From Antedon mediterranea (Eukaryota > Animalia > Echinodermata), in contig NC_092673.1 in NCBI RefSeq assembly GCF_964355755.1, positions 25,848,269 through 25,912,268 of the forward strand: a stretch of DNA of 64,000 bases, in the 5' to 3' direction. The notes under the pieces are model-generated. The model ran no database searches and was not told where the DNA came from. It was given only the letters and a program-made list of their open reading frames with translations. The position numbers and the translations under genes were made by a program. Within the stretch, counting starts at the first letter, position 1; each line of letters starts with the position of its first letter. Shown piece after piece: positions 10,041 to 52,645 of the stretch.

Positions 10041-12114
10041 AATTTGTATAAGTGTAGACAGCTTTAGAGAGACCGGCACAACGATTGGAGTGTCGAACTA
10101 TACCGAACTTAGTGCACTGTGTAGGCTACTCATTGGCAAATCAAGGAGACCTAAAAAGACCGTGAATATTAATTTTTAATTACTATATTAAATTACAGAA
10201 TTACGGCAGGTTTCGCTTTCCTTCCAACGATTAATGTTTGTTTAATTTCGTGAACCAATAACGACGTATGCCAGCCGATAAAAACTGTTTGTAGTTTGTA
10301 CATATGATTTTTGTTTAATTAATTTATGTTGATGGCGTGCAGTTTATACATTAAAGCGCAAATTGTTCAACATAAATTTCATTATTTGTTACGATTTGAT
10401 TGGAAGAAAAAAACAAAAAATGTTTGGTTACGTAATAATAACTATTTTAATACTTACCATATCAGGAGTTAATGTTACAGAAAAGAGTCGTTTTGACATT
10501 ATAAATACACAAGTACGGTAGTAGTCCAGATATATGTTTATTTCTGGTAATGAAACAAACAAACCATCCTCTCTATAATGGTGATCATGTGGTGGCGGAT
10601 ATGCGCTGTCGAGCATGTGACGGCTATTTCGAACTTTAGCAGACATGTTAATGTGTTTAACAAGTTAATAAATGAAATAATAGTTCGACTGGAAAAATAA
10701 TTATTATTGATGTGTAAGGTATTTTAGGCCTATATAAAGAAACATTAGTTTAAAAGAATGTATTGAATAAAGTTTCTGAAAAGGGAACAAATAAATTTTA
10801 AAAATAAAGAAACATTTAATGTTATAAAATGCCAGTATTATGTATTCTGTCCTGTCCTGTCCTGATTCTTTTTACCGACCCGTTTCGTAGATAGTTGTTT
10901 TGTTAACTAATGTTACATAATACTTTCTATATGCCATTATTAATTATTATTTGCAAGATTATGTTTTAAATTTAGTGAATTTATACTTTTGAAAGTAGTC
11001 GCTAACAATGATAAGTTTTGAGAACTCTTTTTTTTTTTTTTCTTTTTTGTGGCGTTAACCACTATTTTATTCATTTCATTCTCAAATGATCAATACAATG
11101 ATTTTACACTTCATCCAAATATATATTCCCTTGTTATTCTGTTCTGTTATTTTCTTGTACTTTCTTTTATCTTTAGTACGATTTGATCGAAACAACTCGG
11201 TCAAATATATATATATATATACTTTATACTTTTATATGTATTATCCACTTTTTTCATTATTTTCTTTTATTTTAACTATTCCTTTCTACAATAGGTCTAT
11301 GTCTCTGTACAAAACACACAAGTGCATATATTCGAGTATATGATTGCACACATGCATACATACATACCCACGACAAAGGTATATAAATAAATAAATATTT
11401 ACAATATATAAAATGCAATACAATTATTATTCTTAATTCTTTTTTTTTTTTTTTTTTACAATAAGAACATAAATAAAAATATAAAATTCAAATAATTATA
11501 GTAAGCTTAAAAAAAAAATCTTTCCTTACTCTTGTGTTTTAGTTTTATGTCTCATGGTTATATTTGTTGCTTACTTATATGTTACGTTTCGTTTTGTTTT
11601 TAATATTTATTTCATTTATTTTCATTTTTTTTTTTTTTATATAATTCTATATAAACCTCTGTAGAATATACCGTATTATAATAGTCGGTTAAGGTATAAC
11701 CTATTATTTTTTTCTGCCAAAAAGAGGCGAGAAAGTGAACCATAATTCCATTTCTTTACTTTCTTCAAAATGTGTGCTTTATAGATACAGAAGCATCCAA
11801 GAGAGAACATGTGGTCAACAGAACTCTTTTTTTTTGTTGCCACAGCTGGTGGTGTTTTCGAGAAAAAAAAAAGATGATATTTGTGATAACATTAATTACG
11901 TTACGTTACGTTACGTCATAACAGTACCAATACCGGTATATAAGACTACCGTACAATAATGTATGATAAACACTTAAAATATCAATATAGATGAATGGTA
12001 CCAATACCTGCGATGGTGAAAATAATGAATAGAAGATGATTAAATGACCCAGATAGTTCACCATGATGACGTATGAAATATTTACTTATACCTTATTAAG
12101 CAGCAATGTACAGG

Positions 12115-12235
12115 TAAAGTATGACGTCATTCTTACCTGCGGCACTACTACTTAGTAGAGTACGAGCAATAATGAACTTTCAACCAATCACCGCGGGCCT
12201 CCTGTATGCGTGTAAATAGCCAATCACGATCTCGG
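12115..12235. promoter_or_regulatory. Promoter-like cluster with a palindromic CRE TGACGTCA (12119-12126) and two CCAAT boxes (ccaatcac at about 12184 and 12222).
   Basis: The motifs are seen directly. No confident gene is found next to it, so its function is unassigned. Confidence 0.25.
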
Positions 12236-13628
12236 ATACAAAATCGGTTCAATCAGAAATAATATAAAACGAATACTGTAATTAAGGATGCAACGACTCA
12301 TGATTTGAACTTAATAAAGTTCATAAATGAAATGTTCGAAATGAAAACAAACGTATAGCCTAGTATTGTTAATGAATGAGTAACCGGACATGCGGTAAAG
12401 GTGTAAACCAAAATACTATAGTCTAATTATTACAATTTTTGATATTTCAGGAAGTTAAACAATGTGGCTATGACTGTTATGACAACGAATAATGTGATGT
12501 AATAGGAATAATGTATTGCAATTCACGCAGTATTGTGAGTATGTATAACAGCAATCAACAAAATGCGTCATCGATATTATTTACGAGGCGATCTTGAGTA
12601 AGGTGTTTATATTTTTAAACAAAGCGTCTTATCATTTGAGAAGTCGTGTTTTTGTTGAAAACGGTGCTCTCTTTACTACTAAGTTGTGCAATCGTTATAA
12701 CGGACATGATACAGTGTTACAATGCCCATTATCACGGTCACATGACCTTGTAGAAAACGTACCTGGGAAAAACCAACCAGCTGATCTGCTGAATTTAATT
12801 ATTTTTTTGCCTGTAACTTCACAAGAACGAAATTGGCACATTTAGAAAGAAAATGTTGTGAAAAGATACATACTAAATTTACGGTATCTTTTGCATGCAT
12901 CGACACTAGAGATTTTTATTTTCCAATAACATTTTGACATTCATTTGATTTGAGTCATGTATTATTTATCTATTTTCTCTGTATCAAACACTCATTGTGT
13001 TCCATGCCTAGCAGTCAGCCTATGAACTACATGTTACTCTTCACAAACCAAAAATGTTTACATCTTGAGATTGGTATTGATGTTATTATGCTATTTTAAA
13101 TACAAACTGAGCAGGCCTATGCCTGCAGTAACATTCTGATTAAATACGCAACAGAAATGATGGGATTCAACGGGCGCCAGTACGCACATTTCTGAAGTAA
13201 ATCTGAATTAGCCGAAGTCTAGATTAAGATTCAAGTTTTTTATAAATCGGAGAAAATGTTCCCACAAACTGTATAAATTAATAGTGGTTGGGTATCTACC
13301 CGCCCCCGTTAATAAAATGGTAGAGTCCAAACGACAACTTTCAAAAATATATTCAAATCATAATTTGTGCGGGTCTGTGGTTTATACAATGACGGTTTGG
13401 TTACATTGAAATTGACGCCATTATGTCTATGACGACTAGATAAAAAAAAATCTTCAATATTATCTCCTAAATAAAAATATATTATCTGAGCATGGAGAAA
13501 AATTACTTAGTCCATGGAGGTATAAACATTTATTTTAAATAGATTCTATATTTATATAGGTATTATTGTATTACGTTAAATCATTTTTAATCAATCTATT
13601 CTGATCATGCTCATTGTCCACATGCATG

Positions 13629-19465: not shown

Positions 19466-21615
19466 ACTTATAATATAGATTAGGATGTATTCCTTTTAAT
19501 GTTTTGTTATTCATTGTTAGGTCCTATTGAAATCATTCAATTTAGTCGCGTGTCGGACGGACATCCTCGTGTTTTTGTATCACACGTCGTACACTTTGAA
19601 ATATGGCATTGTGTACACATGAGAACAAGGCACGCGCTATTTAACATAAACCATAAAGATCAAACTCCCAAATATAGGCTTACTGCCATAGAGGAAATAA
19701 ATATGTATTATAATGGTTCCCTTCCACGTATTAATAATAGAGGAAAAAGTAATAATTCTGTTAACAAAATAGTATTAGCGACATGTGCAACGTTATGTCC
19801 TAGCGCTGCAATAATTATTATTTCATCAACTTTCAACTAAGGAGGTATAGGCCTATACATACAAATATCAACTCATCTATTAAGCCGTAATTCTTTGGTA
19901 ATCGGTACAAATAAACACGACATTGAACGAAAAAATAATATTTATATTATTATTATTAATCATCGTAATAATTATAATTGTTTTCGTTGTAAAACATCAA
20001 AATGTAAACCCTAAAAAAAAGCACGTATTACTGTACTTTATTTTGGTTATTCTAAATTATAAACCTGTTGTTTTTGCTAATATCATGCAAACTTCCCGTA
20101 GATCTACTACGAATTTATTACAGGCCTATTAATATTTATAAAAACCGCTCTCTTACCAGAATATTTCCATTCGATATTGATAAATGAAGGCACAGTATTT
20201 TCCTTTTCAAAGGTCCTGGTACCGGTATAAAGCACTATCTTCCGACGCACTCTTTGTGTATGAAAAATAATAATATTAATATGTTATACGGCAGCATCTA
20301 TTAATACTATAGACCTATAGTAGGATGTTAAAAACCTTTTAGAAATCAGCTACCAGAGAGAAATGTTATTTTTGTAACAGACACGTTGCATTTTCATCTC
20401 TAATTGTATACGTTTAGTTTATTCAGGTTTAATCGTTTAGTTATGCTCATAAAAATTGCATGGTTCAAGTTGTTTATTGTCTGCGTATGTGTGAGAAATT
20501 TAGCCATGTGTTGTATAAGCTACAAATGATTTGGATTTATTAAAAATTGTTATAATATGCGAAAATGCGAACAGACCATATGTAGGCATGGCAAGTTAAT
20601 ATCGGTAGTCGAAAAATGGTAGGGAAATAAATCAAATAAAAATTAAATCAAGTCTATTTTTAAAACGTATCTTCAAACCAGATAAACATTTTCAATCAAA
20701 TCAAGTCTATTCTCATTGTTAAAAATTTATCCATCGGTGAAAAAATCATTTTCATTTAGGCCTATATCATTAGCATATAGTGTGCATTAATGGGAAATAC
20801 ATTAAATGTTCTAAATAACAATTGTGAATAAAATTAAAAAGTTGTTAAAAATGAAATTAGTAGGGCCCTATGCCGTCTGATTACCGTTGATATTATTTTT
20901 TTTAATTATTTCTATATTATAATTTATTATAATTCTATGTTTGTACGCCCGCTGTATTAAAATATGCCATAACACACTCGACTACCGGTAAACCTAAGTA
21001 TTGCTGGTTTTCCGTATGCACGGGTTGTTAAAATTATGGAAAGTCATCACAAGTAATGGCAATTTATCTGGTTTCTACTTCATTTATCGTTGCATAATTA
21101 TAGCCCCATAATAAACTACTCTACGCCTACAAACTTTATTTTTCCATGATTTTCCATGACTTTTTTTTCTTTTTTTTTAAATCACGATTGGCCAATTTAT
21201 TATGTTTTTTTCTAATAATAAGACCATGGAGGTATAAAAAATAGATTAGAATCTATTTTTATACCTCCATCAGTAGACCATGGAGGAAACAATCATTAAT
21301 TTAAAAAAAAATATATATATATACATTGTCCTTCATGGGTAGACAAATATCCCATAATTTAATGACAATACTGTATAAACAATATAAAAAGTTGCAAAAG
21401 TTGTAAGTAGGGGAAATCCCCGAATTCGTGCGATACCGGAAAAGCATATACTACATAAATTCAACCATGCGTGACAGTTACCCTGGATCGGATCGTCGAT
21501 AAAAATAAAGTGTGGGCCTATATATAACATTCATTAACAAGATGTTTCTAAAACTATCTAGCATCGTCATATATGATCTGAACTTCTTGTTTGTAGTAGA
21601 CTTATTGATGCAAAA

Positions 21616-23307
21616 ATGAGTCTGCCGAACTTTGTAGAATTGGGAAAGAAGATTGTGTGTGTTGGTAGAAATTATGCGTAAGTTATTAGCCTTAGTTAGC
21701 AGGTAGGTCTGCCTAGCTAGGCCTAATTAATAGGAGGCCTGACTGCTAGTAAACAAACACTCAGCAGCCCAGTGAGATCTATCCTATAGAGAAGCCTTCG
21801 GGTACATTACTCATTTTTTCCACATAATAGATTCTATTCGGACAAAAACTTTGTGACGACAGAATTCATTCTATGTAGACAAAATTCATTCTGTGTAGAC
21901 AGAATTCATTCTGTGTCAAAAAAATTCATTTTGTGTCAACAAAATTCATTTTGTGTCAACAAAATTAATTTTGTGTCGACAAAATTCATTCAGTGTCGAC
22001 AAAGTTCATTTTGTGTCGAAAAAATTCATTTTATATCGACAAAATTAATTTTGTGTGCTGAGCCTACTCAAGAGTGAGACAGAACGTTTTAACATGCAAA
22101 TTAGAAGGCAGAGTTTTTAATGGAGCCTCAAAGATTGACAGTTATATTAATTTTATTTCCCCAACCTTTTCTACTAACACTTTATAATTACTTGATTTAC
22201 CAGCAACAGTCCAATATAATTATGGAAGTCTTAGTTGAGCAGCAGTGAAATAAAATTTGATGATCGATACTGAAAAGAAAGACACGCATTTTAAGTGTAA
22301 TGAAGCATCTTTATTTAAAACCCCATGCGTCGACTATACCAATTGTTCTTGTTATTAAAGAAATGTCTAATATTGCTTCAACATGGTAGAGACTAACTAG
22401 GCTACTACTAGAAGTGTACAAGAGCCTAGGCCTAGACTAAACTGTCATTTATAATATTTTAATGCCATATGGTTTTTTCCTGAGAGTTGCCGTCAACCAA
22501 TAATAATGCCCTAGAAAATGTTGTACCCAAAATTTCACTAAACTGTCTTTTTACAAATTTTTAGAGATCATGCCGTGGAATTGGGGAACGAAGTTCCAAC
22601 AGAACCACTGTTATTTTTAAAGCCGACTACGGCATACTTACAAGAGGGAAGCTTAATTAAGGTAATTTTGTGTTGTTTTTAGTGAAAATACAGTCTATAG
22701 AAGCCCTTATTTGGGACACTGTCACACCCCTCTATTCATTTGATATTATTTTCTAATATAGGTAATAATAGATAATTAATTCAGCATTGCAACATCTACG
22801 AATAATTCTTGTTAATGCTTCTAGATGCCTCCTGGTTGTACAGACCTTCACCATGAAGTTGAGCTTGGAATTGTCATCGGAACCAAAGGTTCCAACATCC
22901 CAGAAGCATCAGCAATGAACTATGTTTGTGGGTATGTTCTGGGTCTTGACATGACTGCTAGAAACCTTCATGATGCTGCTAAGAAGAATGGTCATTCGTG
23001 GACGCTAGCAAAGTCATTTGACACGTCTTGTCCCATTAGTAAATTTGTCGAAAAAGATTGTGTAAAAGATGTTGATAATGTAAGATTATGGTTGTCCGTT
23101 AATGGAAATATGCGTCAAGACGGAAACACAAGCGATATGATTTTTAAAATTCCAACACTTATTAGTTATATTAGTCGTTCGATGACCCTTGAACCTGGCG
23201 ATGTTATATTAACTGGGACCCCCTCTGGATTTGGACCAGTAAAGTCTGGCGATGTCATTGTGGCTGGTCTAGACCAACTCCTGGAAATGTCTTTTACAGT
23301 CGCCTAA
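21616..23307 (+). CDS. FAHD1: FAHD1-like acylpyruvase / oxaloacetate decarboxylase (fumarylacetoacetate hydrolase domain protein), copy A, 3 exons, 213 aa.
   Basis: join(21616..21677,22565..22661,22825..23307). The translation is [21 protein letters not shown]|[32 protein letters not shown]|[19 protein letters not shown]...[11 protein letters not shown]...TVA*. It aligns residue-by-residue with human FAHD1 ([57 protein letters not shown]). Donors are GTAAGT and GTAATT, acceptors are TTTTAG and TTCTAG, and the phases are consistent (62+97+483 = 642 nt). Confidence 0.9.
21850..22065. repeat. Tandem array of about 20-22 bp (gtgtcgacaaaattcattttgt-like, about 10 copies) in intron 1 of FAHD1 copy A.
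   Basis: Copy B has no counterpart. The array is part of a roughly 560-bp insertion (21815-22375) relative to intron 1 of copy B. Confidence 0.8.
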
Positions 23308-23404
23308 TTTCCGATTACTGTATAAATAAGGTTTTAATAGTCTATCTGTTGGAATTTGTTGGTGGGTATTGAGCAAATTCTAGGAACCTCTGGACGTAAC
23401 CAAT

Positions 23405-23495
23405 AAAAGTGTTAAACTTGCCTCAATTGATATAAGACTCTGAGCTTTATTGGTTTCAAGAGTATTTTGATCTCGAACAGTGGCGAGTTCTAGGT
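23405..23495 (-). pseudogene. Orphan fragment of the MVP penultimate exon (its 3' end plus 11 nt of the following intron) lying downstream of FAHD1 copy A.
   Basis: 23410-23490 is about 90% identical to 27936-28016. The latter is the real 3' end of the MVP exon at 27947..28138 plus its GC donor. Translated on the - strand it reads ...[28 protein letters not shown]. Homology stops abruptly on both sides. Confidence 0.6.
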
Positions 23496-24472
23496 CTGAT
23501 CGCCAACCCACAGTAAATGTAAAATGTGCTAATTTACATGCAAAACTATTATAGGCCTTTAAAACAAAATAATCTGATCTACCTATTGTAAGTTGCTGAG
23601 CATATTTGTTAAATATTATCCACTGCAATAAGAGATTACTGCAGCAATCTGGGATTAGGCCAAATCTTCGCAAAGTGTATACTTGTTTACTTAAATATGA
23701 CCGGCCACTTACCGGCGTTCCCATCTTATTTAGGCCTACGTGTGGGTATAATTATTATGTTTTCTTTGTAGAAAGCAAAGTGTTGCAGATGCCATATTAA
23801 ACTATTGAGTTTCTAAAATACTTCCTTCATGATTTATTATTTTAAATTATTTTTATATTATAGTTTATTATAATGCCATGTTTGTACGCCCACCTGTATT
23901 CAGATATGCCATAACACACACTACCGGCGGTGAACCTAAGTATTGCTGGTTTTCCATGTGCACGTATTGCAGTTGTTACAATTATGGAAAGTCATCACAA
24001 TTGCATTGGAAATTTAACTGGCTTATGCTTCATTTATCTTTATATAATTATGCCTCCACAATAAACTACTGTACGCCTACGAACTTCATTTCCATGACTT
24101 TTTTTAAAACCACGTTTGGCCAATTTGTTGTGTTTTTCACAGGTGACCATTGAGGAAACAATAATTGATCTAAAATTATATATTTTCCTCCATGAGTAGA
24201 CAAATATCCCATAATTTAATGACATTACTGAAACAATAATGATAATAAGTTGTGAAAGTTGTAAGTAGGGGAAATCCAGTAGGGGAAATCCCCGAATTCA
24301 TGCGACACACCGGAAGAGCATACCACATATATTCAGTCATGCGTGACAAAACGTTACCCTGGATATCGGATCGTCGATCAAGTGTGTGGGCCTGTACAAG
24401 ATGTTTCTAAAACCACCCGGTATCGTCATATGATCTAAACTTCTTGTTTGTAGTAGACATATTGATGCAAAA

Positions 24473-25597
24473 ATGAGTCTGTCGAAATTTGTAGAATTGG
24501 GAAAGAAGATTGTGTGTGTTGGTAGAAATTATGCGTAAGTTTAGTGGCCTTTTAGATAGTTATCAGGTAGGCTAGGTCTGCCTAGCTAGGCCTAGCTAGG
24601 CCTAGTGGTAGGCCTGACTGCTAGTAAACAATCCTATGGAGAAGCCTCCGAGTAGCCTGCTTCGACATGGTAGAGACTAACTAGGCTACTACTAAAAGTA
24701 TGCAAGGGCCTAGACTAGACTGTCATTTACATACTTTATTACCATATTGTTTTTTGCAGAGAGTTAATAAATTAATAGCGTAGGTCCCCTAGATGATTTT
24801 GTATCCAACATTGCACAAAATTGTTTTTTTACATATTTTTACTTTTATTTAGAGAACATGCTGTGGAATTGGGGAACAAAGTTCCAACAGAGCCACTGTT
24901 GTTTTTAAAGCCGACTACAGCATATTTATCAGAGGGAAACTCAATTAAGGTAATTTTGTGTTTATATACATTTGGTTGTTTTTAGTGAAAACGCAGTCTA
25001 TAGTCTACAGTCTATACCCCTCTATTTATTAGATTTTATTTTCTAAAATAGGTAATAATAGATAATTTATTCAGCATTGCAACATCTACGAATAATTCTT
25101 TTTAATGCTTCTAGATGCCTCCTGGTTGTACAGATCTTCACCATGAAGTTGAGCTTGGAATTGTCATTGGAACCAAAGGTTCCAACATCCCAGAAGCATC
25201 AGCAATGAACTATGTTGGTGGGTATGCTCTGGGTCTTGACATGACCGCTAGAAACCTTCAAGATGCTGCTAAGAAGAAAGGTCACCCGTGGACACTAGCA
25301 AAGGCATTTGACACGTCTTGTCCCATTAGTAAATTTGTCGAAAAAGATCGTGTAAAAGATGTTGATAATGTAAGATTATGGTTGTCTGTTAACGGAAATA
25401 TGCGTCAAGACGGAAACACAAGCGATATGATTTTTAAAATTCCAACACTTATTAGTTATATTAGTCGCTCGATGACCCTTGAACCTGGCGATGTTATATT
25501 AACTGGGACCCCCTCTGGAGTTGGACCAGTAAAGTCTGGAGATGTCATTGTGGCTGGTCTAGACCAAGTCATGGAAATTTCTTTTACAGTCGCCTAA
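24473..25597 (+). CDS. FAHD1: FAHD1-like acylpyruvase, copy B. It is a tandem paralogue of copy A, with 3 exons and 213 aa.
   Basis: join(24473..24534,24853..24949,25115..25597). It has the same exon structure and phases as copy A and is about 92% identical in protein ([21 protein letters not shown]..., VGGYALG versus VCGYVLG, and so on). Both copies are intact with conserved splice sites. Confidence 0.9.
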
Positions 25598-26734
25598 CTT
25601 CCGATTATAAATATGGTTTTAATAGAATTTGTTGGCGGGTATTGAGCAAATTCTAGGAACCTCTGGACATATCCAATAGTGAAACCGATTGTAAAACATT
25701 TGATTGGGTATTATTAGCCAAATAACAGATTGTTTTTGTGCAGTTTCCAGCTGCAACAATTCCTAAAATAATTAAAGTACCTGCAGAATAAATAATACAG
25801 TATGTGTTTGATGATTGTAGAAAATATGTTGTTATGGATGCTATTAAAAACAGTCAATTATGTTTTGCAAATAAATCTACATTTTATTATTTAATTATCA
25901 TGCATAATATTGTATTGATATGTAGGAAACACAGAAAGTGTATTCACAATAGTTTAGATTATACACTGTTTTTTTTTCTTGAACTGTGGTCAATAAAAGA
26001 ATTAAATTCACAATTTAGTTTGTAAACACGTTTCATGTGACCTGATCTTTCTTTGTATAGACAATGTAGGTATATGTATACATTGGTTCATAATTATAGC
26101 ATACCTATATTATTTTTTTTTTCACAATAAACAACTGAATACACATACATATATAAAATATTAATCTTTAGGTAAGCCTAAAATACCACTATTATCAATT
26201 AGAAAAAATAATAAAAAAACTAAATATTACATTAAAAAAAATATAAACTCAATATTGCATAACATATTCTCTATGCTTCATTACCTCTTGTTTAACAATA
26301 AGCATGCCATGCTATTATCTTTGAGAACCATTAACCTTTTTGCAAAGTTTGAAACACTACAATACTCATGTTAATAAATCTAACATCTTAAAATAGTGCT
26401 GTATTAACATTTTTTATGACATAATGTTTTTTTTTATTTTTTATTTTATTGTGCATTTTAAGAAATGTTATGGTGCCTGTTCCTGTTATTTACTATGCTG
26501 TATATGCTTTTTTTTAAAAATTGTATTTTTTTTTAAACAATTTCTTATTTTTTCAGATGGGTTTTAAGATTAGTTTCTAGGTGACACATCTGTGAATGCT
26601 GTTATTTCTTTACACGGTGAGTTTTCTGATTTTTTTTCTGCATACTGCATGTATATATCTTTTACAAAATGGTTACTTCTATTGCAAAATACAGTTAACA
26701 ATACAAAAATAAATAGACTACTCTTACTACTAAT

Positions 26735-26858
26735 GCTCTGTCTACACTATCAAACTAGGTTGACGACAAAAAAAAGTGTAGTAATATGACATGTTCATAG
26801 ATGGGTACATCACATTTTTTGGTCACATAAAGTTTGATAGTGTAGAGAGAGCTTGAGG
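26735..26858. mobile_element. MITE copy with both terminal inverted repeats, in the FAHD1-B / MVP intergenic region.
   Basis: It begins gctctgtctacactatcaaactag and ends ctttgatagtgtagagagagct. Confidence 0.75.
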
Positions 26859-27026
26859 TTAAATAATATATGAATAAACATTTTATTCTCCGACATAAAA
26901 TAGAATATAACATTATATATAATTCTTTTTGTAAACTACTGTAGGCCGCAATTCCTAAATCATGGGATAAAATTTTGGTTAAATTCAAACAAGTTTCCAT
27001 TTCAATGTATTTACTTGGCGTATATT

Positions 27027-30000
27027 TCACTTGGTACCAATAAGACCATGAGCCGTATTTAAAAGGTTGATGGGATTGTTGCCATCGGTGATAAAAGTGG
27101 TCTCAAGTCCAAGTGCTTTCAGCAACTTAACCTGGTGAAAGAGAAATAAACAGATTAGCATTCTTGGTTGTTGTTTTTTTCAATTTCATACGCATTCAAC
27201 AGCAAGCACAGACTCACCAATTACTGGATGAATAAACTATTTTATAATTGTGATGCTCATAAACTAAGTCTCATTTAAGGCTTAGGGAGTGGAATTGAAA
27301 GAGTCGTGAATTACAACCCTGGCATGGTCAGGATTGAACCATGGACCTTGGGATTGGAAGGCAAACACGTTAACCACCAAGCTACAGCTCCACTTGTCAT
27401 GGTAATTGTAATGGTTGGAACAGTCACAGATGGATGCAGTCTATATGAATGTATGTACCCTATCCTCCTTACCTGCATTTCTGGACCTGCAACTGCTATA
27501 CCTGATATTGTATCTGCTCCTAGAGTATTAACAATCTTCTTAAACTTGGATACCTATTTTTTAAAACAATCATTCTTAGTTTTAGGCTCGGTATGAATTG
27601 AAGAAGACTAAAATTTGCTGGAAACTTTCTTCGCAATAAAGAAGAAATCATTGCTGTGGCAGCCAAAACATGTGCTTGCAAAAAAAGGATGACCAGCACT
27701 CACATACATTTATGTACTAGAGGCGGGTTCTGGTATGCAGAGAGATGAACTGGCTGTCACAATGGCAGATAGGAAGTTATAGAGGAATCTAGTCATATAA
27801 GTTTGGATATGTCCTGAGCTAAGTAAGTTAGTAATGAATTATGAAGAAATAAATTATAAAAGCCCAATAGTCTGTTAAAAAAACAAACTGATAAAAATAA
27901 TTGAATGAGAAAGCGAGTACTGTATTCTAAAAAGGGTTAAACTTGCCTCAATTGATGTAAGACGTTGAGCTTTATTGGTTTCAAGATTATTTTGATCTCG
28001 AACAGTGGCGAGTTCCAAGTCACGAAGTATAGTTGTAGTATCCAAATCTGATGCGTGTAGAATCTCATCGGCCTGCGCCTTCAGCTGGGCGGCTACTATC
28101 TCACTCTGGCACTCAATACGAAGCTTTTCTGACTGGGCCTAAAGATAATTTTTCATATTTGTTTTTATTATTTATTTTTCACCCGTCAATGTATCAGATA
28201 GGATTAAAGAAACCAGTCCGCCCTCATATCCTTCCCTCATGCGTCAAAGTTCATAAAAATCCACCCCTGATAATCAACATTGTTTGATGAACTGGTGCTA
28301 CAATTTTCTCTTCAATTATCAAGCATAATCACTTTTATCATAACTTGCCAAAATAACCAGGCCCATCACAGCTACCCCTGGATCTTGTAAATTCCAGCCA
28401 AATAGGTAAATAAATGCCAACCAAGCCCCCGACCAAGCCCTAATCAACTAAAGTCAACTACAAACAAAATGTTTACCGATGCTTCTGCCTTAGCCTGACC
28501 ACTTGACTCAATAGCAGCTGTCACTGCTTGTAGAGAATATAGCTGACATCTTGCCTTCTCTGCTTCTTTCTCATTGGATAGTTTCTGACGTTCTAATTCA
28601 CCTTTAGCCTTCTGCTCCATTCTGCTTGCCTCGTGCTCTGCTGATGCCTCAACAGATCTTTCATAAAGACTTATAATTAATAGTCTTGAAATCTTTCATA
28701 TTCAAAAACTTAGTTTTATTGAAATAATCTTGTAAAATAGTTCATATGTGGCCAACTAGTCCTCGGTACTGTATCTAAGTTTTCTAGTAAAATGTGTTTT
28801 AAATGTGGAGCCTGTCTCATAGGTCCTAACAATAATCAGGGCCTTAACCAGAATGAGGTAGAGAAGTCACTCCAACACAGCTTGTATACCCACTTATTTT
28901 AATCTCTCACAGACCTGATAGTTTATCAGCGTATTCACCCGCTTTAACCAAGATAGGAACTAGCATTCGCCGTCACAATGTATTTCAATGTCATAACTTA
29001 TTAACGTATTAATGGAACTGCCATACTCACCTTGTTGCTATTTCAATTGCCATTTGAACAGATTTCATCAGACTATCTCTCATATGCTTGTCAACAGGCT
29101 CAATACTTTGTACGTCAACATTGGTGATCACCTTTCAGGTAAAACAATCATTACTAACAAATTAATATATCGCACTATCTTTATATTTAAGGCTACAAAG
29201 AAACAACAACTAAACCACTTCAAAATAAAAATACCTTCAAAATATACATAGAACCTTTCCTGAAAACCTAACAAGGGGCAATATATGTACAGTATGTCTT
29301 CGCAATAATGGACAGGGGTCATAGAAAGGTCATAAAGGTCATGTGCATCACAAAAACATTAAAGAAATAATCCTAGATACAGTAGTATTAAAAGATACGA
29401 AACCATTTTAAAAGCATTATTTTGATTCCTCAGAAAAGCATGGGTGGGAATTATAATTTTATATATAAAATGTTATGTTTTACCAGTTGATTGGCCTCAA
29501 AATAGAGTCTATCTAACACCTTTCCATTGTCATCCACACCAAACACAGCAGCCCGTATTATCTTCACTGAAAACTTGTGGAATTCATCGAAACGAATGCG
29601 GGATACTGCACCTCGAATTCTGCCTCCTAAGAGTGAATTGATAACAAGTCTGGTAAGTTTAGTCATTTTTTTAAGCTCTAGTGATAACAGTTGTTCAGAT
29701 GTGATTGTGCTTAAGTATGAAAGCTTAAAATAGCCACCCACACTCACCATTATCAATTACTTGATTCACTTATAAAAGACTTACCAATCTCACGACAAGC
29801 AAATCCTATAAAATCTGGAACAGAAAAGATAGCCTGCTCTGACTTTTTGTCACCTTTTTTCACCTGTAAAGTGTTAATAGTTAATGGACAGTAAAGATAT
29901 ATTCTTAGAATTCTGAAAATAATTCATTATTTTAAATACAGTAGAACTGTAGAACTTTTTACTTAATAGTAGTTATAACCCTTTAATAATGGCTTCCACT

Positions 30001-33000
30001 TAATAATGGCTTCCCCCTTAATAATGGCTTCCCCCTTAATAATGGCTTCCACTTAATAATGGCTTCCCCCTTAATAATGGCTTCCACTTAATAATGTCTT
30101 CCTCCTTAATAATGTCTTCCCCTTAATACGGGTTACATCTTAATAAGGGTTTACCTGTTATAGGGGTTAGCCCTTAATTAGTGTTCCCCATAATACTGTA
30201 GGAAAGGAGGCGTTCTACTGTAATAAAAAGCAACCAATTTATACCTCAAAATGATTATTGCAGGCAATCTTGATTCGCAGTCTTGCATGGTCGGAAGTTT
30301 CTACCTGAAAGATTTGTTTAAAAAAAATTGTTTTGTTCTGTAATCAGTCTCTGTGATATTTCTTAACCAAGACTTTTATTGGTCGTTAGGCCATCAAGAC
30401 AGGGATGGTACACAAATGAGACGGTACCTGACTATGATGCATGTGTGTATTCTATACCATCATAGTAAATTAACATCTCCCTTTGCATATCATCCCAAAA
30501 CACTGAGCTCGCTATTTTGTGGCAATTAACAGAAATTTACCTCAATGATATCTGTGATGTAGTCTGGACCGAGCATTAGGCAAATTGTTTGAAGTGCATT
30601 TTCTCGTTTTGGCTTGCCAGCTGTAAGATAATAAATACTTTAATCTTAATTAAGTTAAGCGTGAAGTTAAGTTAGGAATTAAGATTAATTAAGACCTGTA
30701 CATCAGATATAGTTCAGCTAGAAAACAATGGAAGATAGCCGAACTACTTACTAAATCTTAACCTGACCCTCTAAATAATCTCTCACTATAAAGTACAAAG
30801 AAATCAAACTCCATACATCCACATTCAAAGTCTAGTCAATCCATTCTACTACACACACGGCTCAACAGAAAGTGTTTACATTAGTAAATTGTAGTTGGGT
30901 CAGTTCTTTATGTCACACCTTATGGATATGAATATAATGAAAATTCATGTTTATTTTGTGACGTTTTATGAGGGGTTCCCAACTGATGTACGAAAAGAAA
31001 TGTTGCGGTCAGGCTACTGTATCATTATGCTATATCCATATTAAAGCTATACAGGTAGGTATTCTTGAATACAGTAGTAAACAATGAGTTGTTACTTTAC
31101 CACTAAGGCTAAGAATATTAAAGTCTTCATGTGGGCCTAGGATTGCCATATCAGGACCAAACACAACTCTGCCAGTCTTCTCTTTGTATTTGTAAACCTA
31201 AAATGGTATGGTAAATTTAATACAATATTGCTTCCAATTTAATAAAATAATATTGTAACGGTAAAATAATAAAAATCAGTACCACTCTATGTATTTCAGA
31301 AAATTTCTATTCTAACAATACCTGAACAGCTGTGTTTCCTGGGCAACGATATGTAACGACTCTAGTTTTATCTCTTCCCTAGAAAAACAAAAGATTATTG
31401 TAAAGAAAAATTAAATCTGAGTTTATTTATTTTGTTTACAATGGATTGAAATTATCTACTCTCTTCCCAATAGTTGTACACACAGACTACCACAGCCTCT
31501 CAAGCTATAGGTAATCCCCTATTTAAAAGTACGCCACAAAAGTCATAACAAAAACATGAATTAAAATGGCTCATCAATTCAACAACGTAAAAATACTTAC
31601 CTTTTTACTAACATATTGTGGATCGATCGATGCTTCAAAATAAGCCATTTTGCGAATGTCATCAGCGCCACATCCACCCCCATTTCTGAAATGGAACACT
31701 TTCATTTTAACACAAGAAACGGATATACATACTTTTTACTACCTATGAACTGCATACTTTTAAGGAAGAGTACTGAGATTTGTAAACTAAATATAAATAA
31801 TTTATATCTTCCAGAAAGAGCTCACTTTAGTATTTCTTCAACTAGTGGTAATAACTTTTTTTCCCACAGCTCTTCATATTCCTCGAGAAGATACGATTGA
31901 GGACCCATGACCGCTCGAATCTTTCCCGTTTGTAAATGTCGAATGTAGATTCCTTCATTTTCTGCAAGAGATATGGCTTTCCTGAAAGGTAAAATAAACA
32001 AACACTGTTTAAAATTAATATCAATAATATAAAACAAAAAACAAAACACTGAAAAAAGAATCTAGGCCATAGGCATGAAATAGAGCATTAGCTTTCTTAA
32101 CCAACCAATCAAAACTCTGCTTACAGTACTATTGAATGGCAAACTAACCTTACAAAGCCACGGTCGTCTTGTTCCATCACATGCACCTGAATGGGTGGTA
32201 TGTATGATGCAGGCCCTTTGATCATCCATCTGTCCCCAGCCTTCCTTGATGGTTTACCTGCATATAGAGAACAATACATAGGTCGCATATGTCATGCCTC
32301 TGGACCAAGCATACAGATACAGTACATACAACAGGTTTGCAGGGATTGAATAGATTTAACACTAAAGCTCTGTCTACACTATCAAATGTATAGCTTTGCA
32401 GGGATTGAAAAAGTTTAACACTGAAGCTCTGTCTACACTATCAAATGTATAGCTTTGCAGGGATTGAATAAGTTTAACACTAAAGCTCTGTCTACACTAT
32501 CAAATGTATAGCTTTGCAGGGATTGAATAAGTTTAACACTAAAGCTCTGTCTACACTATCAAATGTATAGCTTTGCAGGGATTGAATAAGTTTAACACTA
32601 AAGCTCTGTCTACACTATCAAATGTATAGCTTTGCAGGGATTGAATAAGTTTAACACTAAAGCTCTGTCTACACTATCAAATGTATAGCTTTGCAGGGAT
32701 TGAATAAGTTTAACACTAAAGCTCTGTCTACACTATCAAATGTATAGCGTTGCAGGGTTTGAATAAGTTTAACACTAAAGCTCTGTCTACACTATCAAAT
32801 GTATAGCTTTGCAGGGATTGAATAAGTTTAACACTAAAGCTCTGTCTACACTATCAAATGTATAGCTTTGCAGGGATTGAATAAGTTTAACACTAAAGCT
32901 CTGTCTACACTATCAAATGTATAGCTTTGCAGGGATTGAATAGATTTAACACTAAAGCTCTGTCTACACTATCAAATGTATAGCTTTGCAGGGATTGAAT

Positions 33001-36000
33001 AAGTTTAACACTAAAGCTCTGTCTACACTATCAAATGTATAGCTTTGCAGGGTTTGAATAAGTTTAACACTAAAGCTCTGTCTACACTATCAAATGTATA
33101 GCTTTGCAGGGATTGAATAAGTTTAACACTAAAGCTCTGTCTACACTATCAAATGTATAGCTTTGCAGGGATTGAATAAGTTTAACACTAAAGCTCTGTC
33201 TACACTATCAAATGTATAGCTTTGCAGGGATTGAATAAGTTTAACACTATAGCTCTGTCTACACTATCAAATGTATAGCTTTGCAGGGATTGAATAAATT
33301 TAACACTAAAGCTCTGTCTACACTATCAAATGTATAGCTTTGCAGGGATTGAATAAGTTTAACACTAAAGCTCTGTCTACACTATCAAATGTATAGCTTT
33401 GCAGGGATTGAATAGATTTAACACTAAAGCTCTGTCTACACTATCAAATGTATAGCTTTGCAGGGATTGAATAAGTTTAACACTAAAGCTCTGTCTACAC
33501 TATCAAATGTATAGCTTTGCAGGGATTGAATAAGTTTAACACTAAAGCTCTGTCTACACTATCAAATGTATAGCTTTGCAGGGATTGAATAAGTTTAACA
33601 CTAAAGCTCTGTCTACACTATCAAATGTATAGCTTTGCAGGGATTGAATAAGTTTAACACTAAAGCTCTGTCTACACTATCAAATGTATAGCTTTGCAGG
33701 GATTGAATAAGTTTAACACTATAGCTCTGTCTACACTATCAAATGTATAGCTTTGCAGGGATTGAATAAGTTTAACACTAAAGCTCTGTCTACACTATCA
33801 AATGTATAGCTTTGCAGGGATTGAATAAGTTTAACACTAAAGCTCTGTCTGAACTATCAAATTTTATGTGACAAAAAATGAAGTGATCACACATTTTTTG
33901 TCAAACTAGTTAGTCATACCGTGAACTGCATCATCAATGAAATCTTCAATTGCCAGCAAAACTATCGCCTCATCTTCTGAGAGTACAAACTCTTTTTGAA
34001 TACCCTCTGGAATTCGTTCATCTAAATTAAGAGAATACCAGATGGAAGGTTAAAACAATTTCAACCATCTTTACATGGTCAAATCTTTCAGATAAACAAT
34101 TTTAGGAATTGGTACATTTTTTAGTACATTTAATTATGTATTTCTTGATTAAAATAAATAAAAAACCTTACTTGGATTGAGGAAGAAGCTTGTAACACCC
34201 TTGCGAAGTTCTTTTTGTCCAAGTCTCGGCCTTCCTGTCGAATTCACTGGATCGTGAATAACACAATATTCACCTTTAGCTAAAACTTTCTTTGTTACAA
34301 TGTCTGCCACAACCTGTAAACATACAATGATTTGAAACTGGATCAGAAAAAAAATGATTTACCTGAAAAAAAAATGTAATTTAAAGCAAGTCAAAGAATT
34401 ACAGTTTTTTTGTTTTTGTTTTTATAGAAGTGAATAACTTTATTAAAACTGCAAAATGGCCTATTTAAAGTCTGATTTTATTAATCTTAATTTTTCATGT
34501 TTTTGGAGGAAACATAACAGTATACATAACATAAAAGTAACATAGCGAACATGTCACTGTTTGCATTAACATTTCACTTTTTAAAACAGTAAACTGAAAA
34601 TTGTTTTTCTTTAGCTCAAAAAATTGACCCAAGTGTTTTTTATTTTGTTTTTAGATAATGGTTTTAACAGCCAGAAAATATGCTAGTTCTATGCAGATAA
34701 CCATTCCTCAAAGATGTAAGTGTTTCATAGTTTTTTTTAAATGTATTTGCAGTACCTCTCCAATCTCTGGAATATATGCCTCAATATCGTTTTTTGTGAT
34801 CAACCATGTTTGGCCCGACTTTCTTTCACGGCCAAGTCCATCAACGCAGGTCTGCTCAGCAACCATGTGTAAGCCAAGGTTGTCGTTTAGAATGTACGCT
34901 TTGACTTCTTCCAAATACTCCTCATAGACACCAGGAAGGTATGCTCCTGGTGTTCTAACTAACCACATCTCATCTGTTACACGATTCCTGTGTTTAAAAA
35001 GAGAGGCACAATAAAATTGCTCAATTTAACTGACAGATATTCACCATATTTAGCACCTAAAGCTCGGTCTACACTATCAAACAAAAAGTGTGTGATGTGC
35101 CCAAATATGGTAGTGATATGACATCATTTCTATATATTGGCACAACACTTTTTTTGTCAAACTAGTTTGATAGTATAGATAGAGCTTTAGAATTATCACA
35201 ATGTGTTATAAGCTACTGGTTATACCATGGAGAAATAAGTTAGTTAACTTATTTCTCCATGGTTATACATACTGCAGAGAATATTTACTTTTATTATGAA
35301 AGAACAAGGTAGGAAAAAAGATAAAAAGAACTTTGTAGGCAGACCATTCTGTAATAAAAAATATTCAAACCCATATTAAACCAGTTACTGCAGAAGTTTA
35401 AAAAGGGAAAATCAAGCCAAACATTAATGTATACTAACTTTCCATTGTCATCGGTAAAATCTTGTACAGCTCTCATTTTTAGTGCATGTCCTTCCTTCAC
35501 GATAAATGGCTTAATAATCCCCAAAATTTCCTGGAAAAAAGGTTTGAAAATAAATACGTCTACATTGCTTAAAAACACCTGTTTTTGTAAACTATTGAAC
35601 TTTTTAAAAACTTACTACATTAGGATTTGGGTAATATGTCAACGGACCAATAAGCTGAAAGCAATCACCAGCGGTACGCTGAACATCGCCATCCTGGTGA
35701 TCCAGAAGAACTTGAAGTCTAATGGCATGATTTGATTTAACAACTGGTAAAGGGCGCACAGCTTTTGAATATGAACCACCTGAAAAGACACAAAAATCTA
35801 TAAATCTATGACACTTTCAACTTTTAAAAATTCAATCCAAAATATTACTGATTAAGTATTAAGTATCTTTTACCTTGAATTCCTTCAATTTGTTATATAT
35901 AATGTATGTTTTTGTAGATATTTACCTAAATGTATATCTATCTATAAATGTGTGTGTACTACAGTTTTGTAAATTACTTGGTTAGTTGTCTTTGAATTAT

Positions 36001-42848: not shown

Positions 42849-43015
42849 AAGTTCTGTCTACACTATCAAACTTTATGTGACAAAAAATGTGATGTGCCCA
42901 TATATGTACATGATGATGTCATATCACTACCATATTTGGGCATATTACTTACCATATTTGTGCATGTCACACTTCTTTTGTCAAACTAATTTGATAGTGT
43001 AGACAAAGTTCAAGA
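42849..43015. mobile_element. MITE copy with both terminal inverted repeats, just downstream of BUB3.
   Basis: It begins agttctgtctacactatcaaa and ends tttgatagtgtagacaaagttc. Confidence 0.8.
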
Positions 43016-52479: not shown

Positions 52480-52645
52480 AAGCTCTATACACTAACAAAC
52501 TAGTTTGACCAAAAAGTGTGATGTGCCCAAATATAGTATAAATATAGTATGCCAAAATATGGTATTGATATGACATCATCATGTCCATATATGGTCACAT
52601 CACATTTGTTTATCACATAAACTTTGATAGTGTAGACATAGCTTT
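52480..52645. mobile_element. MITE copy (diverged).
   Basis: It begins agctctatacactaacaaa and ends ctttgatagtgtagacatagcttt. Confidence 0.7.

What the first reader, a model, noticed from the sequence alone, without database searches (positions are those of the whole stretch)
20880..25690. Recent tandem duplication of the FAHD1 gene with both copies intact
Two complete 3-exon FAHD1-like genes lie 2.86 kb apart in the same orientation. Their proteins are about 92% identical and every splice site is conserved. The duplicated unit starts about 700 bp upstream of each ATG (20880 and 23823) and ends about 100 bp after each stop. Intron 1 of copy A is 887 bp versus 318 bp in copy B because of a roughly 560-bp insertion (21815-22375) that carries a 21-bp tandem array. 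The amino-acid differences cluster around the predicted metal-binding and lid region (VCGYVLG versus VGGYALG, and [13 protein letters not shown] versus NLQDAAKKKGHPW). This raises the possibility of subfunctionalisation between the acylpyruvase and oxaloacetate-decarboxylase activities.
Basis: partly seen in the sequence, partly recalled or inferred. Interest (0 to 1): 0.6.

Follow-up and report, generated by a model that had tools for sequence, protein, structure and literature searches.

The report
Feather-star FAHD1 tandem duplicate, one diverging
A feather star (Antedon mediterranea) carries two neighbouring, intact copies of the mitochondrial enzyme gene FAHD1: one copy has stayed almost unchanged, while the other has changed quickly, including at a catalytic residue that is otherwise invariant. 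This is an ordinary kind of event with one mildly interesting detail.

Summary
Two three-exon FAHD1 genes lie 2,857 bp apart (ATG to ATG) on the + strand. Each encodes 213 aa, they are 91.5% identical, and all splice sites are GT-AG. The window comes from the crinoid Antedon mediterranea, and RefSeq already annotates both genes (XP_071946800.1 and XP_071947946.1).

The duplication postdates the split from Anneissia japonica, which has one copy next to the same neighbour, MVP. It is not an assembly artefact: non-coding DNA is only 86% identical with 29 indels, there are no Ns, and an 85-bp relic of an MVP exon sits behind copy A. That relic shows the copied segment reached into MVP.

The divergence is strongly one-sided. 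Copy A has 15 amino-acid changes and copy B has 2 (p=0.002). Copy B matches the ancestral state at all 10 catalytic-centre residues. Copy A has Gln102→His at the position of human Q109, which is Q in 118/118 animal homologues and never H in 150 wider family representatives. It also has P111S and V189F at near-invariant sites. Copy A's frame is intact although about 4-6 indels would be expected under neutrality.

The pattern fits neofunctionalisation or relaxed constraint on copy A, not a symmetric split of acylpyruvase and decarboxylase roles. The tandem array has a period of 20, not 21. Interest is modest.

The parts
20888..23405 (+). Duplicated unit A: 5' flank, FAHD1 copy A and 98 bp of 3' flank
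   Evidence: blastn self-comparison and MAFFT alignment with 23830-25678. Non-coding identity is 86.2%.
21616..21677 (+). Copy A exon 1 (ATG at 21616; donor GC|gtaagt)
   Evidence: Gene model translated. Identical to RefSeq XP_071946800.1.
22565..22661 (+). Copy A exon 2
22825..23307 (+). Copy A exon 3 (stop TAA at 23305-23307). It carries Q102H (CAT, 22969-22971), P111S (TCG, 22996-22998) and V189F (TTT, 23230-23232).
21805..22369 (+). 565-bp segment of intron 1 present only in copy A. Whether it is an insertion or a deletion is undetermined.
   Evidence: Alignment gap. No other copy in the window. No terminal inverted repeats or target-site duplication.
21850..22056 (+). Minisatellite of period 20 with 10.4 copies (consensus TTTGTGTCGACAAAATTCAT) inside the A-specific intron segment
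   Evidence: Tandem Repeats Finder; the repeat finder family D1
23406..23490 (-). Relic of the antepenultimate coding exon of MVP. It reads [27 protein letters not shown] and abuts the 3' flank of copy A.
   Evidence: 94% identical to 27931-28015. tblastx match to the Anneissia MVP exon. Translation.
23491..23829 (.). 339-bp unique junction sequence between the two units, of unknown origin
   Evidence: No significant match in the window, in the Anneissia locus or upstream of A
23830..25678 (+). Duplicated unit B: 5' flank, FAHD1 copy B and 81 bp of 3' flank
24473..24534 (+). Copy B exon 1
   Evidence: Identical to RefSeq XP_071947946.1.
24853..24949 (+). Copy B exon 2
25115..25597 (+). Copy B exon 3. 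It keeps the ancestral Q102 (CAA, 25259-25261), P111 and V189.
25679..27930 (.). 2,252 bp present after copy B but absent after copy A. It holds the intergenic DNA and the last two MVP exons (27042-27143 and 27467-27553, minus strand), and also interspersed repeats.
27931..28015 (-). Counterpart of the relic, inside the MVP exon 27941-28138. It marks the right-hand limit of the duplicated segment.

Best explanation
This is a lineage-specific tandem segmental duplication in the feather star Antedon mediterranea.

Shown:
- The copied segment, about 4.2 kb in present-day B coordinates (about 23830-28015), carried the whole FAHD1 gene with about 0.65-0.73 kb of 5' flank and ran into the 3' part of the convergent neighbour MVP.
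- The upstream copy (A) now lacks 2.25 kb of that segment, leaving an 85-bp MVP exon relic and 339 bp of unique junction DNA.
- Copy B sits in the ancestral downstream context, next to MVP as in Anneissia. It has kept the ancestral protein: 2 changes, omega about 0.05 (equal to the background), and all 10 catalytic-centre residues.
- Copy A has taken nearly all the protein change: 15 substitutions, with omega about 0.5-1. Three hit near-invariant positions. The most notable is Gln102 to His, at the residue (human Q109) that holds bound oxaloacetate or acylpyruvate in the conformation needed for C3-C4 cleavage.
- Copy A keeps its start codon, frame, splice sites, the Mg ligands (E64, E66, D95), the H23-E26 dyad, and K40 and K116.

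Inferred:
- Copy B is the working mitochondrial oxaloacetate tautomerase/decarboxylase.
- Copy A is still kept as a protein-coding gene, but freed from the ancestral constraint. It has an altered substrate-positioning loop and so probably reduced or changed decarboxylase/hydrolase chemistry.
- In short, this is asymmetric divergence at an early stage of neofunctionalisation, not a shared split of functions.
For: Duplication and its anatomy:
- Collinear homology of the two units.
- An MVP exon relic lies behind copy A.
- FAHD1-MVP synteny and a single copy in Anneissia.

Age: dS is 0.10 between the copies against about 1.7 to Anneissia. Non-coding K is about 0.15.

Identity as FAHD1:
- Pfam FAA_hydrolase at 217 and 225 bits.
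- The best solved relatives are mouse and human FAHD1, E about 1e-84.
- Both proteins are identical to RefSeq FAHD1-like entries.

Asymmetry:
- 15 against 2 polarised amino-acid changes, p=0.0016.
- The branch codon model rejects a single omega (p=3e-8). Omega for B is 0.04-0.06 against a background of 0.033.
- Copy A deviates at 3 of 56 sites that are at least 95% conserved. Copy B and Anneissia deviate at none.

Catalytic residue:
- The column for human Q109 is Q in 118/118 animal homologues. In 150 representatives of the wider family it is Q in 134 and never H.
- Its mechanistic role is described in PMC7115867.
- Mutating the equivalent Gln in Cg1458 removes about 98% of decarboxylase activity (PMC8398924).
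- The catalytic-centre residue list comes from PMC7056447 and is mapped onto both copies.

Continued selection for an open frame in A:
- There are no indels in 642 bp, although non-coding DNA shows 29 indels per 156 substitutions.
- That ratio predicts 4.3-6.1 indels on the A branch under neutrality, giving P(0)=0.014-0.002.
- There is also no stop codon (P about 0.3-0.45).
Against: - With only one, saturated outgroup, omega for A cannot be told apart from 1 (p=0.37). The test of omega A equal to omega B gives only p=0.09 at the codon level.
- A's substitutions hit conserved sites about as often as random mutation would (3 observed, 3.9 expected). That is what a decaying copy would also show.
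- The indel argument borrows a rate from AT-rich non-coding DNA and may overstate the expectation for coding sequence.
- No expression, localisation or activity data could be examined here. The two RefSeq isoform models for copy A are predictions.
- His could be a tolerable replacement for Gln, so no functional shift is proven.
Confidence: 0.6

Rival explanations
1. Copy A is simply a redundant young duplicate under fully relaxed constraint. It would be a pseudogene in the making that has not yet suffered a disabling mutation, and the Gln-to-His change is one of several damaging hits.
For: - Omega for A is not distinguishable from 1.
- Substitutions fall on conserved sites at about the neutral expectation (3 against 3.9).
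- Three near-invariant residues are replaced, including one whose mutation nearly abolishes activity in a bacterial homologue.
- The chance of escaping a stop codon by luck is high (0.3-0.45).
Against: - There is no indel in 642 bp, where 4-6 are expected from the non-coding indel-to-substitution ratio (P about 0.002-0.014).
- All four splice sites, the ATG and 9 of 10 catalytic-centre residues are intact.
- A's coding divergence is below the non-coding divergence.
Confidence: 0.3
2. The two copies have divided the ancestral bifunctionality, one specialising as acylpyruvase and the other as oxaloacetate decarboxylase.
For: The differences include residues of the ligand-ordered loop next to the Mg ligand D95. 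FAHD1 is known to be bifunctional (PMC7056447).
Against: - Copy B is virtually unchanged from the ancestor (2 changes, none at conserved sites), so it has not specialised.
- Q109 is assigned the same conformational-control role in both reactions (PMC7115867), so its replacement does not separate them.
- The clustering of changes is not statistically significant.
Confidence: 0.05
3. The duplication is an assembly artefact, for example two haplotypes placed in tandem.
For: None found. Only one assembly could be examined.
Against: - The copies differ by 14% in non-coding DNA, with 29 indels and a 565-bp intron length difference.
- They have different flanks and an MVP exon relic at the junction.
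- The window contains no Ns.
- dS of 0.10 is far above allelic divergence.
Confidence: 0.02

Closest known systems
Human and mouse FAHD1 (oxaloacetate tautomerase/decarboxylase and acylpyruvase; PDB 6FOG, 6FOH, 1SAW, 6SBI, 6SBJ)
   Same: There is a full-length alignment (residues 3-212) to the solved structures at E about 1e-82 to 1e-84. Both copies have a single FAA_hydrolase domain. Copy B has all ten catalytic-centre residues (G24, R25, H30, E33, K47, E71, E73, D102, Q109, K123 in human numbering), and copy A has nine of them.
   Different: Copy A has His in place of Q109. It also has Asn for K115 and Ser for P118 in the ligand-ordered loop, and Phe for V196 in the GTPxGVGP motif. The crinoid proteins are 213 aa, with a shorter N-terminus than the 224-aa human protein.
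Anneissia japonica FAHD1 (XP_033098796.1), the single-copy crinoid orthologue
   Same: It has the same three-exon structure and intron phases, and the same downstream neighbour MVP on the opposite strand. It is 89% identical to copy B.
   Different: Only one copy was found within ±10 kb and only one in the protein search. Its introns are 774 and 783 bp. It matches copy B, not copy A, at 15 of the 18 sites where the two copies differ.
Cg1458 of Corynebacterium glutamicum (a bacterial FAHD1 analogue and oxaloacetate decarboxylase)
   Same: It shares the fold and catalytic scheme. Its equivalent Gln is needed for decarboxylation, and mutating it removes about 98% of activity (PMC8398924).
   Different: It is a bacterial enzyme used here only as mutational precedent. 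The mutation tested there is not known to be His. I did not compare its sequence directly.
Asymmetric divergence after tandem gene duplication (the general neofunctionalisation or relaxed-copy pattern)
   Same: One copy is conserved at the background omega. The other is accelerated and has replacements at conserved sites. A truncated piece of the neighbouring gene was carried along with the duplication.
   Different: Nothing here departs from the general pattern. The only specific feature is which residue changed.

Membership tests
FAHD1 / FAA_hydrolase (PF01557) | FAA_hydrolase domain scoring above the Pfam gathering threshold | tested here: met
   Copy A scores 216.7 bits and copy B 225.3 bits against a cut-off of 23.9.
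FAHD1 / FAA_hydrolase (PF01557) | Closest characterised relatives are FAHD1 rather than FAH, FAHD2 or HpcE | tested here: met
   Mouse and human FAHD1 are the top PDB hits (E 5.5e-84 and 1.5e-81). The next hit, HpcE, has E 8e-57. RefSeq names both proteins FAHD1-like.
FAHD1 / FAA_hydrolase (PF01557) | Mg-binding triad E71/E73/D102 (human numbering) | tested here: met
   E64, E66 and D95 are present in both copies.
FAHD1 / FAA_hydrolase (PF01557) | Complete catalytic centre: G24, R25, H30, E33, K47, Q109, K123 | tested here: not met
   Copy B meets this feature in full. Copy A does not: Q109 is replaced by His102, while the other residues are kept (residue list from PMC7056447). Copy A is therefore a FAHD1 paralogue by descent but not a canonical active-site member.
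FAHD1 / FAA_hydrolase (PF01557) | Orthology by conserved gene neighbourhood | tested here: met
   FAHD1 is followed by MVP on the opposite strand in both Anneissia (L001) and the window.
FAHD1 / FAA_hydrolase (PF01557) | Oxaloacetate tautomerase/decarboxylase and acylpyruvase activity; mitochondrial location | not testable with these tools
   This needs enzyme assays and localisation experiments.
Tandem segmental duplication | Two collinear, same-strand copies with homology that extends through introns and flanks | tested here: met
   20888-23405 matches 23830-25678, with 86% identity in non-coding DNA.
Tandem segmental duplication | Single copy in an outgroup | tested here: met
   tblastn finds one copy within ±10 kb in Anneissia japonica, and only one Anneissia protein appears among the homologues. 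Other crinoid genomes could not be reached.
Tandem segmental duplication | Independent confirmation of copy number from reads or a second assembly | not testable with these tools
   Neither protein is on record in the contig collection.
Unprocessed pseudogene (copy A) | Frameshift, premature stop, lost start codon or broken splice site | tested here: not met
   The 642-nt frame is open, the ATG is present, and all introns are GT-AG.
Unprocessed pseudogene (copy A) | Neutral evolution (omega = 1) | tested here: inconclusive
   Omega of 1 for A is not rejected (p=0.37), but the absence of indels argues against neutrality (P 0.002-0.014).

The most novel reading that the evidence does not exclude
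Copy A could be a natural separation-of-function FAHD1.
- It keeps the Mg site, the H-E dyad and K116 (human K123, the residue proposed to ketonise enol-oxaloacetate).
- It has lost the Gln that aligns the C3-C4 bond for cleavage.
- It might therefore tautomerise oxaloacetate without decarboxylating it, or act on a different 2,4-diketo acid.
- That would make it a ready-made tool for the dispute over whether FAHD1's physiological role is tautomerase or decarboxylase.
Probability: 0.15. Interest if true: 0.5.

Novelty: new member of a known kind. Interest (0 to 1): 0.27.

Why it matters
In itself this is a routine lineage-specific tandem duplicate of a housekeeping enzyme, and RefSeq already annotates both genes.

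Its small value lies in a natural experiment. One copy is frozen at the ancestral sequence. The other has an intact frame but a His at the substrate-positioning Gln, a residue that is invariant in every animal FAHD1 examined and never His in 150 wider family representatives.

If copy A is expressed and active, comparing the two proteins would test the proposed role of Q109. It would also test whether the tautomerase and decarboxylase steps of FAHD1 can be uncoupled.

The MVP exon relic is a clean marker of the duplication's extent and of which copy kept which ancestral context.

Tried and rejected
- The sigma-70 promoter and intrinsic-terminator scan is irrelevant for a eukaryotic locus, so I ignored it.
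- A single-sequence AlphaFold2 model of copy A failed (mean pLDDT 30) and was not used. I did not run a second model with an alignment, because the tool returns no coordinates with which to inspect His102.
- Exact look-ups of both proteins in the contig collection found nothing. There is therefore no independent assembly or transcript evidence.
- I looked for transposon hallmarks in the A-specific 565-bp intron segment. There are no terminal inverted repeats, no target-site duplication and no other copies in the window, so insertion against deletion remains undecided.
- I tested whether the 339-bp junction (23491-23829) derives from DNA upstream of copy A. The best local alignment scores 21 against a shuffle mean of 17.7 and maximum of 25.5, so I rejected this.
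The scan-permutation P is 0.23, so it is not significant.
- The three-taxon ML branch model could not place the synonymous changes because the outgroup is saturated (dS about 1.7). Omega for A ran to infinity in the free model, so I rely on amino-acid polarisation and treat the codon-level tests as weak.
- I looked for a gene-conversion explanation for the higher identity of exon 3. Synonymous differences are spread evenly, so there is no clear tract, and I did not pursue it.
- Other ORFs in the region are mechanical. One of them (23380-23724, minus strand) merely runs through the MVP relic.
Full report
**What is there**

The stretch 20.9-25.7 kb holds two same-strand three-exon genes.
- Copy A: exons 21616-21677, 22565-22661 and 22825-23307.
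- Copy B: exons 24473-24534, 24853-24949 and 25115-25597.

Each CDS is 642 nt (213 aa plus TAA). All four introns in both copies are GT...AG, and the exon phases are identical. The proteins share 195 of 213 residues (91.5%), and the CDSs differ at 33 nucleotides with no indel. The ATGs are 2,857 bp apart. Introns are 887/163 bp in A and 318/165 bp in B.

Both proteins carry one FAA_hydrolase domain, at 217 and 225 bits against a cut-off of 23.9. Their best solved relatives are mouse and human FAHD1, at E 5.5e-84 and 1.5e-81 over residues 3-212.

**Source and annotation status**

Both sequences are exact matches to RefSeq proteins of the crinoid Antedon mediterranea.
- Copy A is XP_071946800.1, 'oxaloacetate tautomerase FAHD1, mitochondrial-like isoform X1'. 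A predicted isoform X2 of 202 aa starts from an ATG at 21674 and uses another donor.
- Copy B is XP_071947946.1.

So the genes themselves are already annotated. I found no paper that describes the duplication.

**Anatomy of the duplication**

Self-comparison and a global alignment show that 20888-23405 is collinear with 23830-25678. Identity by part:

| Part | Identity |
|---|---|
| 5' flank | 85.6% |
| Intron 1 | 84.0% |
| Intron 2 | 88.7% |
| 3' flank | 93.8% |
| Exon 1 | 96.8% |
| Exon 2 | 88.7% |
| Exon 3 | 95.9% |

Overall, the 1,127 aligned non-coding bases are 86.2% identical (K about 0.15) and carry 29 indel events.

Intron 1 of A has an extra 565 bp (21805-22369). It contains a minisatellite of period 20, not 21, with 10.4 copies at 21850-22056. 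It has no transposon hallmarks and no other copy in the window, so I cannot say whether A gained it or B lost it.

Directly after unit A, 23406-23490 is 94% identical to 27931-28015. That target lies in the antepenultimate coding exon (27941-28138, minus strand) of the major vault protein gene MVP. The MVP exons run from 27042 to beyond 35490 and are collinear with the Anneissia MVP gene. The relic still translates as [27 protein letters not shown], against [27 protein letters not shown] in MVP.

From this I conclude the following.
- The copied segment reached from about 23830 to about 28015 in present-day B coordinates, about 4.2 kb, and ended inside MVP.
- The A side lacks the 2,252 bp (25679-27930) that hold the intergenic DNA and the last two MVP exons. 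Either this was deleted afterwards or the event was complex from the start.
- 339 bp of unique sequence (23491-23829) fill the junction. They match nothing significant.
- Copy B keeps the ancestral downstream context and copy A the ancestral upstream context.

**Not an artefact, and its age**

The window has no Ns. The copies differ by 14% in non-coding DNA, with many indels, different flanks and a gene relic at the junction. That is incompatible with collapsed or duplicated haplotypes.

The outgroup crinoid Anneissia japonica has one FAHD1 gene within ±10 kb. It has the same three exons, introns of 774 and 783 bp, and MVP downstream. Only one Anneissia protein appears among the homologues.

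Nei-Gojobori estimates:

| Comparison | dN | dS | omega |
|---|---|---|---|
| A vs B | 0.040 | 0.103 | 0.38 |
| Either copy vs Anneissia | - | about 1.7 | 0.03-0.05 |

The duplication is therefore much younger than the split between the two crinoid lineages.

**One-sided divergence**

I polarised the 18 amino-acid differences with Anneissia. Fifteen are on the A branch, two on the B branch (L205V and M208I), and one is ambiguous. The relative-rate test gives p=0.0016, or 0.0023 by the exact binomial. The polarisable synonymous changes are 5 and 5.

A three-taxon codon model gives these results.
- It rejects one omega for all branches (p=3e-8).
- It puts omega for B at 0.04-0.06, no different from the background of 0.033 (p=0.75).
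- It cannot distinguish omega for A from 1 (p=0.37).
- The test of omega A equal to omega B reaches only p=0.09.

The outgroup is saturated, so this model is weak.

In an alignment with 117 non-crinoid animal FAHD1 proteins, 56 of 213 sites are at least 95% conserved. Copy A deviates at three of them, and copy B and Anneissia at none. With Anneissia added (118 homologues), the three sites are:
- Q102H, where the column is Q in 118 of 118;
- P111S, where it is P in 117 of 118;
- V189F, where it is V in 118 of 118.

Among 150 representatives of 50%-identity clusters across the wider family, the Q column is Q in 134, L/I/V in 12, E in 1 and T in 1. It is never H.

**What the changed residues do**

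Crinoid residue n corresponds to human residue n+7. The mapping is confirmed because all ten published catalytic-centre residues fall on the expected amino acids in copy B. The list is G24, R25, H30, E33, K47, E71, E73, D102, Q109 and K123 (PMC7056447).

Copy A keeps nine of the ten and has His at Q109. In the published mechanism, the Q109 carboxamide holds Mg-bound keto-oxaloacetate, or the 4-carbonyl of acylpyruvate, in the rotamer that allows C3-C4 cleavage (PMC7115867; PMC12176266). Mutating the equivalent Gln in Cg1458 removes about 98% of decarboxylase activity (PMC8398924).

Q102H, K108N and P111S lie in or next to the loop (human Q109-K115) that becomes ordered on ligand binding. The true lid (human G24-E33) is unchanged in both copies. 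The apparent clustering of changes at 88-117 is not significant after allowing for all windows (P=0.23).

**Is copy A still under selection?**

Evidence that it is decaying:
- Omega is near 1.
- Substitutions hit conserved sites at about the neutral frequency (3 observed, 3.9 expected).
- Escaping a stop codon by chance is likely (P 0.31-0.45).

Evidence that it is being kept:
- The start codon, frame and splice sites are intact.
- There is no indel in 642 bp. The non-coding indel-to-substitution ratio (29:156) predicts 4.3-6.1 indels on the A branch, giving P(0)=0.014-0.002. The caveat is that non-coding AT-rich DNA may be more prone to indels.
- Coding divergence is lower than non-coding divergence.

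On balance, I judge that copy A has been retained as a coding gene while released from the ancestral constraint, with probability about 0.6-0.7. The main rival is a nascent pseudogene, at about 0.3.

'Recent tandem duplication, both copies intact' is supported.

The proposed split between acylpyruvase and decarboxylase is not supported. Copy B has not specialised at all, and the key residue changed in A serves both reactions in the published model.

A different split remains possible but untested: tautomerase retained and decarboxylase lost in copy A.

**Assessment**

This is a lineage-specific tandem duplicate of a known enzyme gene, showing the familiar pattern of asymmetric divergence. It is a new member of a known kind and of modest interest. 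The single notable point is the unprecedented His at a catalytic Gln in a copy whose frame is still intact.

Noticed in passing
window 12088-12163 (-) and 12672-12758 (-): There is a mir-252 precursor (Rfam RF00838, 61 bits, above the gathering score). About 500 bp away lies a second hairpin conserved with Anneissia. Both blocks are 86-89% identical to L001 768-870 and 1209-1296, despite dS of about 1.7 between the species. The second hairpin folds with z=-3.15 and matches mir-2001 only below threshold (34 bits against 74). This is probably a conserved miRNA cluster upstream of FAHD1.
   Followed up: partly
window 27042 to beyond 35490 (-): The major vault protein (MVP) gene converges on FAHD1 copy B. 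Its exons are collinear with the Anneissia japonica MVP gene, so FAHD1-MVP synteny is conserved among crinoids.
   Followed up: partly
window about 32361-33802, and 26729-26865 with copies near 35057-35187, 42849-42912, 52580-52644 and 56789-56938: A long satellite of about 59-bp period lies inside an MVP intron. Its unit matches the ends of a short palindromic MITE-like element that is scattered through the window.
   Followed up: no
window 20486-20516: A 31-bp block is 97% identical to Anneissia (L001 7651-7681). It lies about 1.1 kb upstream of copy A and outside the duplicated unit, so copy B lacks it. It has no significant RNA fold. It might be a regulatory element that only copy A inherited.
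   Followed up: partly
window 21410-21421 and 24282-24293: A palindromic GGGGAAATCCCC motif, which from memory resembles a kappa-B site, is conserved about 200 bp upstream of both ATGs. In copy B the 14-mer AGTAGGGGAAATCC is tandemly duplicated (24264-24291). A consensus donor-like GTAAGT overlaps it, and an acceptor-like ...TTGTTTGTAG lies 17 bp before each ATG, so a 5'-UTR intron is possible.
   Followed up: no
window 21217-21275: Copy A's 5' flank carries a roughly 59-bp A-specific insertion. It contains a perfect 15-bp inverted repeat (ATGGAGGTATAAAAA / TTTTTATACCTCCAT) and is flanked by GACCATGGAGG direct repeats. It is absent from copy B.
   Followed up: no
window 23403-23408 versus 25676-25681: The AATAAA that follows copy A's stop codon lies exactly at the A/B homology breakpoint and is not present in copy B (CCAATAGTG). 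Copy B would need a different poly(A) signal, for example AATAAA near 25789.
   Followed up: no
protein P0001 (Pocillopora meandrina, 355 aa): The top-scoring homologue is much longer than other FAHD1 proteins (355 aa against about 215-225). It may be a fused model of tandem copies in a coral.
   Followed up: no
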